Shown in pieces: positions 1 to 5,710 of a stretch of 16,287 bases of DNA; the first letter of the stretch is position 1; each line of letters begins with the position of its first letter. The DNA lies in contig CAZECW010000021.1 of NCBI GenBank assembly GCA_964510585.1, positions 1-16,287 on the forward strand. The letters run 5' to 3'. The notes below the pieces were generated by a model. It saw only the letters and a list, made by a program, of their open reading frames with translations, had not been told where the DNA came from and did not search any database. A program made the translations under genes and the position numbers. This stretch comes from an uncultured archaeon. GTDB lineage: Archaea > Asgardarchaeota > Jordiarchaeia > Jordiarchaeales > Jordiarchaeaceae.

Positions 1-1
1 A

Positions 2-140
2 TGCTGTGTTGCATAATTCTTATTTTTTTAATTTATTTATATATTATTTTGAATTTTTTGCAATTTCACATTGTTAATTTGAAAAAATTTAAGAAAATTA
101 AATAAATTCATTAGAAAAAGTAAAATTATACAACACAGCA
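2..140. repeat. AT-rich ungapped imperfect palindrome (139 bp, centre at 71)
   Basis: Positions i and 142-i pair. By hand count 53 of 69 pairs are Watson-Crick, plus 2 G-T. Perfect outer arms TGCTGTGTTG (2-11) / CAACACAGCA (131-140). May continue beyond the window start. Confidence 0.9.
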
Positions 141-240
141 CTGGTAAACACTGTGTATTAGATGTAGCTTGGATGTCCAAAAGCTCAAATAAAGCTCCAA
201 GCCGAGACAGGCAGAGAAGGTTCGAGCATTCAACGATAAT

Positions 241-398
241 CCCAGGTCCCACAAAGGACAGGGATAACTGGGTGGTGGCACACCCATTGCAGATAGCTAC
301 TGAGCGGTGAAGGGATGAACGCTTAAAACGCATTTATCCCCGAGTGTTGAGGGGGCTGTGTGCAAGAATCCCCAGACTTCAGTCGAGAGGAGTGTCAA
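241..398 (+). mobile_element. IS200/IS605-family right-end remnant (tnpB 3' tail / omegaRNA-like scaffold); left end not found
   Basis: GAAT (366-369), imperfect hairpin CCCCAGACTTCAGTCGAGAGG, terminal TCAA (395-398): an ISHp608-type right end. 265-290 is 25/26 identical to the reverse complement of 5464-5489. The left boundary is uncertain (somewhere in 141-240). Confidence 0.8.
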
Positions 399-4929: not shown

Positions 4930-5385
4930 TTACCATGATTGGAGAAATTTTTTCAAATTTTTTATTCTGTCGCAATTTTCTAAATCGCGTATTAGCCTTT
5001 CGAGTTTATTAATATTAATATTTATTATTTGGTGTAGTTTTATACCATCATTTGGTAGACCGTAATTCCCCATTTGCATATTAGCTTGTTTTACAGCTTC
5101 TAATAACCATTCTTCTAGTCTCGGACACAGAACGACTAAACGATTGCACTTTTTATCATGTAGAATTTTCAAACCGTGTTCAGATAAAATTTCGGCTTTC
5201 GCTCTCTTCATATATGGTGGTTGTGGGCTGTTAGGGTCTTCGTCTACCAGTCCTATACAATTTTCCTGCTTTTCTAACTTTTTACAAATCTCAGGTTTGT
5301 TTCCTGCGTGAATAATTTCCTTCTTTGAAATTTTTATTAATGATTTTACCAGAATACTGTCTGGTTTGCATTCAACATAGATTAC
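4930..5385 (-). pseudogene. TOPRIM-like protein lacking a canonical start codon
   Basis: The frame is open well upstream of the ORF-track start: VIYVECKPDSILVKSL...IIHAGNKPEICKKL...IGLVDEDPNSPQPPYMKR, giving an E...DxD TOPRIM-type signature. No in-frame ATG/GTG/TTG lies between the upstream in-frame TGA (inside the inserted element) and Met at 5211. Confidence 0.55.
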
Positions 5386-5401
5386 TCTTTTAGAATTTTC
5401 T

Positions 5402-5575
5402 TTGACACTCTCCGCGACTAAAGTCGGGAGATTCTTGCTTCTGGCTCATCGGGAGCCTTCGAAGCAATGGGTGTGCCATCACCCAGTTAACACGCCCTTC
5501 CCTCAAAGGAACGGCGTCTATGTTGGCACCCTCATGGGGGCTGCGTCCTGTTTAGCCTCTTAAGCCCAAGCCAAA
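5402..5575 (-). ncRNA. Putative omegaRNA/reRNA-like structured RNA
   Basis: Internal TATATAAATA (rc 5595-5604) upstream; successive hairpins shared in position with 241-398; ends at the right-end TCAA. The 5' end is estimated from TATA spacing and expression is not shown. Confidence 0.45.
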
Positions 5576-5677
5576 CCCTTCAGCTACCAACAACTATTTA
5601 TATACCATACTTTCAAATAAACTTTCTGGCGATTCATCCCCACGACTAGAAGTCGGGGGCTTTCTCGCCAAGGTTTT
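5402..5677 (-). mobile_element. Complete 276-bp non-autonomous IS200/IS605 derivative (PATE/MITE-like) with ISHp608-type ends
   Basis: Left end: TTAC (rc 5678-5681) | AAAACCTTGGCGAG-AAAG-CCCCCGACTTCTAGTCGTGGGG. Right end: GAAT-CTCCCGACTTTAGTCGCGGAG-AGTG-TCAA. The AAAG/TTAC and GAAT/TCAA guide/cleavage pairs are those established for ISHp608. No tnpA or tnpB ORF inside. Confidence 0.88.
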
Positions 5678-5710
5678 GTAAAATTTTCATTTTGACTAAG
5701 TGGTTCTGCA

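What the first reader, a model, noticed from the sequence alone, without database searches (positions are those of the whole stretch)
5380..5681. Complete protein-free IS605 derivative that keeps a promoter and an omegaRNA-like scaffold: a possible mobile, trans-acting guide-RNA cassette
The 276-bp element has both TnpA-recognition ends with the full ISHp608 code (TTAC/AAAG on the left, GAAT/TCAA on the right), an internal TATA box and the structured 3' scaffold, but no tnpA or tnpB. A transcript of roughly 170 nt would read through TCAA into the flank AGAAAATTCTAAAAGAG, so each new insertion would acquire a new guide. Such a guide would match the empty allele right after TTAC. If a TnpB is supplied in trans, this minimal element could be both mobilised and protected or homed by borrowed enzymes, or could act as a programmable regulator. 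The ends and TATA are seen in the sequence; TnpB guide biology is established; function here is inference.
Basis: partly seen in the sequence, partly recalled or inferred. Interest (0 to 1): 0.8.

Follow-up and report, generated by a model that had tools for sequence, protein, structure and literature searches.

The report
Gene-less IS605 mini-transposon with guide RNA
This is one of roughly 80-100 copies of a 276-base, protein-free offshoot of an IS200/IS605 transposon in a hot-spring archaeon; it keeps both transposon ends, the old transposase promoter region and the folded guide-RNA scaffold of the TnpB nuclease, which makes it a clean example of a kind of element (PATE / stand-alone omegaRNA) that is already described.

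Summary
On the minus strand, window 5677-5402 is a 276-nt element with no ORF. TTAC precedes it and it ends in TCAA; AAAG and GAAT sit at the feet of the two end hairpins.

The genome holds 30 complete internal copies plus about 80 half copies at contig ends (96 left ends, 78 right ends, every flank different). 29 of the 30 complete copies follow TTAC.

The parent is an IS with an intact tnpA and a 393-aa tnpB. The element looks like an internal deletion that joined the left end and tnpA promoter region (tnpA ATG now CTG) to the last ~125-165 nt of tnpB plus the right end.

That 3' part is a conserved omegaRNA scaffold. In 25 sequences from several archaeal lineages the stems covary, and a loop-to-3'-end pseudoknot pairs in every sequence.

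- Its TATA box is the most variable part of the family (intact in 16 of 30 copies). A better conserved BRE/TATA candidate lies 17 nt upstream.
- RNA evidence is weak.
- No empty site was found for this copy.

Protein-free IS605 derivatives with omegaRNAs acting in trans are already in the literature. Earlier agents of this scan reached the same verdict on other copies. Verdict: real, well preserved, a new member of a known kind.

The parts
5678..5681 (-). TTAC: TnpA target / left cleavage site in the flank, and the expected TnpB TAM
   Evidence: 29 of 30 complete copies and 77 of 95 left ends follow TTAC.
5402..5677 (-). The 276-nt protein-free IS200/IS605 derivative (PATE)
   Evidence: no ORF; 30 complete copies plus about 80 half copies at contig ends; unrelated flanks.
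5638..5663 (-). Left end: AAAG guide tetranucleotide (5663-5660) and the subterminal hairpin (5659-5638)
   Evidence: 84-95% identical to the left ends upstream of tnpA on C169, C7 and L096.
5614..5628 (-). Conserved BRE/TATA-like CAGAAAG-TTTATTTG, homologous to the region upstream of tnpA in the parent IS; the better promoter candidate
   Evidence: nearly invariant in 30 copies. The same position holds AAAAAG-CTTATAGG in the parent IS and AAAAGAG-TTTAATAA in the sister species' PATE. Promoter activity is inferred.
5595..5604 (-).
   Evidence: intact in 16 of 30 copies; the most variable stretch of the family.
5581..5583 (-). CTG, remnant of the tnpA start codon (ATG in the parent IS); homology to the parent's 5' part ends just after it
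   Evidence: alignment with C169 and C7.
5525..5580 (-). About 55 nt with two hairpins and only weak similarity to the parent tnpB 3' region; origin unclear
5402..5524 (-). omegaRNA scaffold core, homologous to the last ~125 nt of the parent IS. It comprises hairpin 5518-5492; box hairpin 5485-5468 (remnant of the tnpB codons NWVMAHPL); long-range stem 5467-5461 with 5441-5435, enclosing hairpin 5457-5443; GAAT 5434-5431; right-end hairpin 5430-5410; and TCAA 5405-5402
   Evidence: 75-77% identity to the parent IS 3' end; covariation across 25 sequences.
5474..5478 (-). Loop UGGCA of the box hairpin, pseudoknot partner of UGUCA at 5407-5403
   Evidence: 125 of 125 cells paired in 25 sequences, against 24-50 when slid; one compensatory A-U to G-C change.
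5382..5401 (-). Flank directly after TCAA: the would-be 16-20-nt guide of this copy
   Evidence: all 78 right ends in the genome have different flanks. The guide role is inferred from TnpB biology.

Best explanation

Origin. One internal deletion removed tnpA from about its third codon and nearly all of tnpB. This joined the left end and the tnpA promoter region to the omegaRNA scaffold and the right end.

Mobility. TnpA made by full-length copies excises and inserts it as single-stranded DNA 3' of TTAC. It uses the AAAG/TTAC and GAAT/TCAA pairings and the two hairpins. This step is shown only by the anatomy and the copy pattern.

RNA (inferred). Transcription from the retained promoter region runs through the scaffold and across TCAA into the flank. 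This would give each of about 80 copies its own stand-alone omegaRNA with a flank-derived guide.

Retention (inferred). TnpB supplied in trans by the few full-length copies would load these RNAs and cut the TTAC-flanked empty site left after excision. Repair from a sister chromosome would then restore the element. That retention advantage would explain why deletion derivatives that keep the scaffold have multiplied.
For: Shown by tool results:
- Copy number, TTAC/TCAA boundaries and unrelated flanks.
- An intact 129-aa Y1 transposase (Pfam Y1_Tnp, E = 9e-35) sits behind a left end 84-92% identical to this element's.
- The alignment runs from the left end to the mutated tnpA start codon.
- The 3' 125 nt are homologous to the tnpB 3' end plus right end, including the NWVMAHPL codons of the 393-aa TnpB P0002.
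- tnpB fragments covering residues 1-202 and 287-393 are in the assembly, in at least 3-4 copies.
- A second, apparently intact 424-aa tnpB on C81 has a near-identical right end.
- Stems covary: 11 of 25 predicted pairs have double changes. The pseudoknot pairs in all 25 sequences, which come from Bathyarchaeia, Nitrososphaeria, Methanomethylicia, Archaeoglobales and others.
- A sister species carries a different ~208-nt PATE family with another deletion junction. It also keeps the promoter region, the scaffold and the right end.
- A hot-mat metatranscriptome holds contigs that cover 5401-5553 and run across the right end into other flanks (weak).

From the literature: PATEs often encode omegaRNAs that TnpB must use in trans (PMC10055086). 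Stand-alone omegaRNAs work in trans with a compatible effector (PMC10691335, PMC9581776). A haloarchaeal PATE is transcribed (PMC4615843).
Against: - No transcription start, strand or processed RNA is shown. The RNA contigs come from other copies or variants and could include DNA.
- The copies are 89-98% identical, so conservation of the scaffold within this genome may only reflect a recent burst.
- The middle of the cognate tnpB (residues 203-286) is not assembled in this genome. One copy is frameshifted. An intact cognate TnpB is therefore shown only in a metagenome contig.
- Both TnpBs have Gly at the RuvC-II position. This clade is predicted, not proven, to stay active through an alternative glutamate (PMC10691335).
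- No empty site or presence/absence polymorphism was found for this copy.
Confidence: 0.6

Rival explanations
1. Plain MITE. The element is moved by TnpA in trans, and the omegaRNA-like part is kept only by descent from a recent deletion. It has no RNA function and no help from TnpB.
For: Copies are 89-98% identical, which fits a recent burst. The named TATA is degenerate in many copies. There is no direct RNA evidence for this copy. Only about 50 nt are needed by TnpA at each end (IS608 literature; own knowledge).
Against: A separately derived ~208-nt PATE family in a sister species also keeps exactly the scaffold, with a different junction. The pseudoknot and all conserved stems are intact. 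There is no oligo-T stop inside the scaffold. Metatranscriptome contigs cover the scaffold.
Confidence: 0.3
2. Portable outward promoter or regulator. The retained promoter reads across the right end and drives or silences neighbouring genes, or the guide directs TnpB to other loci as a regulator.
For: The promoter region points outward across TCAA. In one copy (C12) the element sits exactly between TTAC and the ATG of a 90-aa ORF, and its guide matches a TTAC-flanked paralogue on C154.
Against: Co-oriented ORFs starting within 200 nt downstream are not enriched: 33/78 against 566/1178 at random TTAC sites. Only 1 of 78 guides has a second TTAC-flanked match. The TnpBs keep RuvC-I and RuvC-III residues, so they do not look like dead, domesticated regulators.
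Confidence: 0.05
3. RNA or DNA decoy. The many hairpin and scaffold copies titrate TnpA or TnpB and so damp the parent IS, as was once proposed for haloarchaeal PATE RNAs.
For: Some 80-100 scaffold copies face only a few tnpB genes. The idea is raised in PMC4615843.
Against: Nothing here tests it. It does not explain why guides directly abut a TnpA-competent right end in every copy.
Confidence: 0.05

Closest known systems
PATEs (palindrome-associated transposable elements) of IS200/IS605: Haloquadratum walsbyi (PMC3119063), Halobacterium salinarum VNG_R0052 (PMC4615843), Geobacillus stearothermophilus (PMC10055086)
   Same: Protein-free fusion of a left and a right IS200/IS605 end; many copies; mobilised in trans. 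Such elements are stated to encode omegaRNAs often, for use by TnpB encoded elsewhere. One archaeal PATE RNA is shown to be expressed.
   Different: This family is in a hot-spring archaeon. Its copy number is unusually high (about 0.7% of a 3.8-Mb genome, and a main cause of contig breaks). The junction places the tnpA promoter region directly in front of the scaffold.
Stand-alone omegaRNAs of OMEGA systems (Altae-Tran et al. 2021, as summarised in PMC10691335 and PMC9581776)
   Same: Mobilised omegaRNA loci without an effector or transposase, in genomes that also hold complete loci; proposed to add target sites in trans.
   Different: According to PMC9581776, the trans activity was shown with IscB. 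For TnpB, and for archaea, it remains inferred, here as well.
ISHp608 / IS608 of Helicobacter pylori (own knowledge of the TnpA cleavage code)
   Same: The same four tetranucleotides (TTAC, AAAG, GAAT, TCAA) in the same positions relative to the two hairpins.
   Different: IS608 is a bacterial, autonomous element. This one is archaeal and gene-less, and its parent TnpB belongs to the clade with Gly at RuvC-II.
TnpB omegaRNA of ISDra2 (PMC8612924, PMC10097598)
   Same: The RNA derives from the tnpB 3' end and the right end; the scaffold includes a pseudoknot next to the guide; the guide is taken from the flank; the TAM equals the TnpA target motif.
   Different: No detectable sequence similarity and no Rfam match. 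The scaffold here is driven (by inference) by a captured tnpA promoter rather than lying within a tnpB transcript.

Membership tests
IS200/IS605 non-autonomous element (PATE) | Subterminal imperfect hairpins at both ends, and no terminal inverted repeats | tested here: met
   left hairpin 5659-5638, right hairpin 5430-5410.
IS200/IS605 non-autonomous element (PATE) | Insertion 3' of a fixed tetranucleotide without target duplication, and a fixed right cleavage site | tested here: met
   TTAC before 29 of 30 complete copies and 77 of 95 left ends; TCAA at 29 of 30 right ends; the flanks are not duplicated.
IS200/IS605 non-autonomous element (PATE) | No protein-coding gene between the ends | tested here: met
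   no ORF of 60 aa or more within 5402-5677.
IS200/IS605 non-autonomous element (PATE) | A Y1 transposase with matching ends in the same genome | tested here: met
   tnpA on C169 (129 aa, full Y1_Tnp profile) and on C7, behind left ends 84-92% identical.
IS200/IS605 non-autonomous element (PATE) | Demonstrated mobility (empty site or presence/absence polymorphism) | tested here: inconclusive
   no joined empty form in four metagenome runs. In sister species the two flanks lie on different contigs, and no TTAC is seen at the homologous point.
TnpB omegaRNA (OMEGA guide RNA) | Derived from the 3' end of tnpB plus the right end | tested here: met
   75-77% identity over about 125 nt with the parent IS, including the codons for NWVMAHPL.
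TnpB omegaRNA (OMEGA guide RNA) | Conserved secondary structure supported by covariation, including a pseudoknot next to the guide | tested here: met
   11 of 25 pairs have double changes; pseudoknot 125/125 cells paired, with one compensatory change.
TnpB omegaRNA (OMEGA guide RNA) | A variable guide directly 3' of the right-end boundary | tested here: met
   78 right ends with 78 different 16-nt flanks.
TnpB omegaRNA (OMEGA guide RNA) | The RNA is transcribed across the right end | tested here: inconclusive
   RNA-library contigs cover 5401-5553 and continue into other flanks. They are contigs of other copies, without strand or ends.
TnpB omegaRNA (OMEGA guide RNA) | Binds TnpB and directs TAM-dependent cleavage | not testable with these tools
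   Needs RIP-seq and interference or cleavage assays.
Rfam RNA families (e.g. HgcC RF00062, linked to tnpB 3' RNAs in PMC4615843) | Score at or above the family's gathering threshold | tested here: not met
   no match at gathering score; only chance-level hits at E of 2.5 or more.

The most novel reading that the evidence does not exclude
The roughly 80 copies would form a dispersed, promoter-equipped guide library that a handful of TnpB genes use in trans. Deletion derivatives that captured the tnpA promoter would then out-replicate their parent by hijacking its nuclease for homing in a polyploid archaeon. Occasionally they would also target paralogous TTAC-flanked sites (as the C12 guide matches C154), driving gene conversion or rearrangement. 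The synteny break at this very copy would fit that.
Probability: 0.12. Interest if true: 0.6.

Novelty: new member of a known kind. Interest (0 to 1): 0.3.

Why it matters
It gives a very clean natural case, with about 80 different guides, for testing whether TnpB really serves gene-less passengers in trans. That has been proposed for PATEs but, in what I read, shown only for IscB with stand-alone omegaRNAs.

It also documents a compact, covariation-supported scaffold of about 125-165 nt with a pseudoknot, for a TnpB clade with a rearranged RuvC-II site from thermophilic archaea. This could interest genome-editing work.

For annotation, this family explains a large share of the contig breaks in the assembly.

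Tried and rejected
- Rfam at gathering and at permissive thresholds: nothing meaningful.
- Exact right-end pattern scan of genome contigs: 0 matches; the own genome is left out of that collection.
- Empty site for this copy: none found. In sister species the left flank (88-89% identical) continues into unrelated sequence without TTAC, and the right flank lies on other contigs. Metagenome contigs show no joint from 5401 to 5678.
- RNA evidence: one metatranscriptome with a small share of the stretch gave four contigs. Two cover the scaffold, but they belong to other copies or variants and give no strand, start or end. I do not count this as proof of transcription.
- Depth ratio of element to flank in metagenome contigs (about 100-300 fold): consistent with many copies, but depths are summed over organisms.
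- Second-site targets of the 78 guides: 12-nt matches occur at about chance level. Only one is TTAC-flanked (C12 to C154), and it is a 98% identical copy of a short ORF.
- Outward-promoter idea: no enrichment of co-oriented downstream ORFs.
- Assembling the full parent IS from this genome: failed. tnpB residues 203-286 are missing from the assembly. The full gene came from a metagenome contig.
- Organism name: not obtainable with the tools. Only 'hot springs metagenome' runs hold the stretch, and relatives of the TnpB are mostly Thermoproteota.
- No structure or complex prediction was run, because RNA cannot be included.

Full report
**Observation.** On the minus strand the window reads TTAC (5681-5678), then a 276-nt element (5677-5402), then unrelated flank.
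- The left end has AAAG (5663-5660) at the foot of a hairpin (5659-5638).
- The right end has GAAT (5434-5431) at the foot of a hairpin (5430-5410), followed by AGTG and TCAA (5405-5402).
- No ORF of 60 aa or more overlaps the element.
- These are the four tetranucleotides of the IS608 cleavage code, in the right places (the rule itself is from my own knowledge of the IS608 literature).
- The 3' 177 nt fold far better than shuffles: -77.7 kcal/mol, z = -4.5. The opposite strand also folds well (z = -4.0), as expected for hairpin-rich DNA.

**It is a repeat family.**
- The 3.78-Mb, 217-contig assembly gives 139 blastn matches. Thirty are complete internal copies at 83-98% identity (all but one at 89% or more). 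About 80 are half copies of about 140 nt that sit exactly at contig ends, so the family is a main cause of assembly breaks.
- 29 of the 30 complete copies follow TTAC, 29 of 30 end in TCAA, and the flanks are all different.
- Pattern counts give 96 left-end hairpins (77 of the 95 with enough upstream flank follow TTAC) and 78 right ends with 78 different flanks.
- The family as such was found only in this genome. Sister species of the genus hold elements with similar ends but different interiors.

**The parent.**
- Pfam Y1_Tnp hits lie on C169, C7 and C162. Each is preceded by a left end 84-92% identical to this element's, and each is followed by the start of a tnpB that runs into a contig end.
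- The TnpA on C169 is a complete 129-aa Y1 transposase.
- The tnpB C-terminus and its right end lie on C8, with three more right ends on C54, C45 and C152.
- A protein search with the N-terminal fragment found a 393-aa TnpB (P0002, 99% identical over the fragment). It lies on a 2.5-kb metagenome contig that carries tnpA and tnpB.
- The assembly itself covers residues 1-202 and 287-393 in at least 3-4 copies, one of them frameshifted.
- P0002 ends NWVMAHPLEVQI, and the element still holds the codons for NWVMAHPL (5487-5464).
- A second IS on C81 has a degenerate tnpA and an apparently intact 424-aa tnpB, 43% identical to P0002, with a near-identical right end.
- Both TnpBs carry Gly where RuvC-II usually has Glu, as do all ten relatives aligned. 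This is the rearranged clade described in PMC10691335, which is predicted to use an alternative glutamate.

**How the element arose.**
- Aligned with the parent, homology runs from the left end through the region upstream of tnpA to the tnpA start codon, which is CTG here (5583-5581), and then stops.
- Homology resumes clearly at AACATAG (5524) and runs for the last ~125 nt of the parent to TCAA.
- The 55 nt in between hold two hairpins and have only weak similarity to the tnpB 3' region.
- The simplest reading is one internal deletion that put the tnpA promoter region in front of the omegaRNA scaffold.

**The scaffold is real.** I aligned this element with 24 other right-end regions: the parent, the C81 IS, a second orphan in the window, and TnpB loci from Bathyarchaeia, Nitrososphaeria, Methanomethylicia, Culexarchaeia, Archaeoglobales and others.
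- RNAalifold predicts the box hairpin, a long-range stem and the right-end hairpin. Eleven of 25 pairs have double changes, for example G-C to C-G in 6 sequences at one box-hairpin pair and A-U to G-C in 8 at a right-hairpin pair.
- The parent-type scaffold replaces the long-range stem sequence with a compensating one (TTGGAGG/CTTCCAA against TTGCTTC/GAAGCAA). It also lacks a ~45-nt insert that the other clade has. This element resembles the parent type in lacking that insert.
- Following a lead in earlier notes of this scan, I tested a pseudoknot between the box-hairpin loop UGGCA (5478-5474) and UGUCA at the 3' end (5407-5403). All 125 cells pair, against 24-50 when the partner is slid. There is one compensatory A-U to G-C change and three pair-keeping single changes.
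- The 3' partner overlaps the TnpA cleavage site, so part of its constancy has another cause.

**Independent support for selection on the scaffold.** A sister species carries a different PATE family of about 208 nt. It has its own deletion junction, and it too keeps the left end, the promoter region, the hairpin before the box, the box hairpin, the long-range stem and the right end.

**Promoter.**
- A BRE/TATA-like CAGAAAG-TTTATTTG (5628-5614) is almost invariant. It corresponds in position to AAAAAG-CTTATAGG upstream of tnpA in the parent and to AAAAGAG-TTTAATAA in the sister PATE.
- In the parent, only this upstream box could place a start site before the tnpA ATG. I therefore consider it the more likely promoter.
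- Either box would give a transcript of about 170-190 nt plus guide.
- No run of five T interrupts the scaffold.
- All of this is inference.

**RNA and DNA from public runs.**
- Only hot-spring metagenomes hold the stretch.
- In DNA contigs the summed depth over the element is about 100-300 times that of the flanks.
- One microbial-mat metatranscriptome gave contigs over the neighbouring MFS gene and two contigs over the scaffold (5401-5553, and a variant with an insert). These contigs run across TCAA into other flanks. They show that scaffold-bearing sequence of this family is in an RNA library. They do not give the strand or the start, and they do not show that this copy is transcribed.

**Guides and neighbours.**
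- Of the 78 guides, only one has a second TTAC-flanked match. The C12 copy sits between TTAC and the ATG of a 90-aa ORF. A 98% identical copy of that ORF on C154 has TTAC directly before its ATG and no element.
- Co-oriented ORFs downstream of right ends are not enriched.
- For the window's own copy, the two flanks are not neighbours in sister species, and the left flank there continues into other sequence. This copy therefore sits at a synteny break, and no empty site could be shown.

**What is known.**
- PATEs were defined in Haloquadratum (PMC3119063).
- A Halobacterium PATE RNA is expressed and linked to tnpB 3' RNAs (PMC4615843).
- Meers et al. state that PATEs often encode omegaRNAs that must be used in trans by TnpB from other IS copies (PMC10055086).
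- PMC10691335 and PMC9581776 report mobilised stand-alone omegaRNAs that work in trans, shown with IscB.
- Earlier agents of this scan examined other copies in this genome and reached the same verdict.

**Verdict.** I put the guide-RNA role at about 0.6. It is a new member of a known kind, so interest is modest.

Noticed in passing
window 143-398 (+): A second protein-free omegaRNA-type scaffold ending GAGTGTCAA at 398. It has the same box hairpin and right-end hairpin, plus a ~45-nt extra stem like the C81-type IS. Four copies in the genome (C21, C107, C58, C32) at 82-91% identity. No left end was recognised.
   Followed up: partly
window 1-140: An AT-rich, nearly palindromic 140-nt repeat (arms 2-70 and 72-140). 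It has at least 15 copies at 84-100% identity, several at contig ends; apparently another MITE-like family.
   Followed up: partly
window 5595-5604 and the same columns in 30 copies: The TATATAAATA stretch differs in up to 8 of 30 copies per column, while the rest of the element differs in 0-2. It is a local hot spot of change of unknown cause.
   Followed up: partly
G000:C12:8676-8956 and G000:C154:2120-2321: One copy is inserted exactly between TTAC and the ATG of a 90-aa ORF. A 98% identical copy of that ORF on C154 has TTAC directly before its ATG and no element, so it matches that copy's guide perfectly. It may be a paralogue or a strain variant.
   Followed up: partly
window 5380-5700 versus L098 (G001) and L102 (G004): This copy lies at a synteny break. 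In sister species the left flank continues into what looks like coding sequence, and the right flank (MFS transporter side) is on other contigs.
   Followed up: partly
L044 (G000:C81:4900-7100), minus strand: The 424-aa TnpB reading frame runs through the whole omegaRNA scaffold and stops at a TGA formed just outside TCAA. The C-terminal extension (LLLRWNGM.WEPKRAMN) is conserved in relatives, so the protein and the RNA scaffold share about 135 nt.
   Followed up: partly
L096:1960-2000: The full-length parent IS on the metagenome contig lacks the usual GTGTCAA end: after GGGGAGT comes TATACGTTTA. That copy may be unable to excise.
   Followed up: no
TnpB proteins P0002 and L044:176-1447:-: Gly replaces the RuvC-II glutamate (VGDLKDIR, LGRLRGIR) in these and in all ten aligned relatives. 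This fits the rearranged catalytic-site clades of PMC10691335.
   Followed up: partly
first base after TCAA at 78 right ends in G000: G is almost absent at the first flank position (1 of 78; A 43, T 19, C 15). This may reflect a TnpA or TnpB preference beyond TTAC.
   Followed up: no
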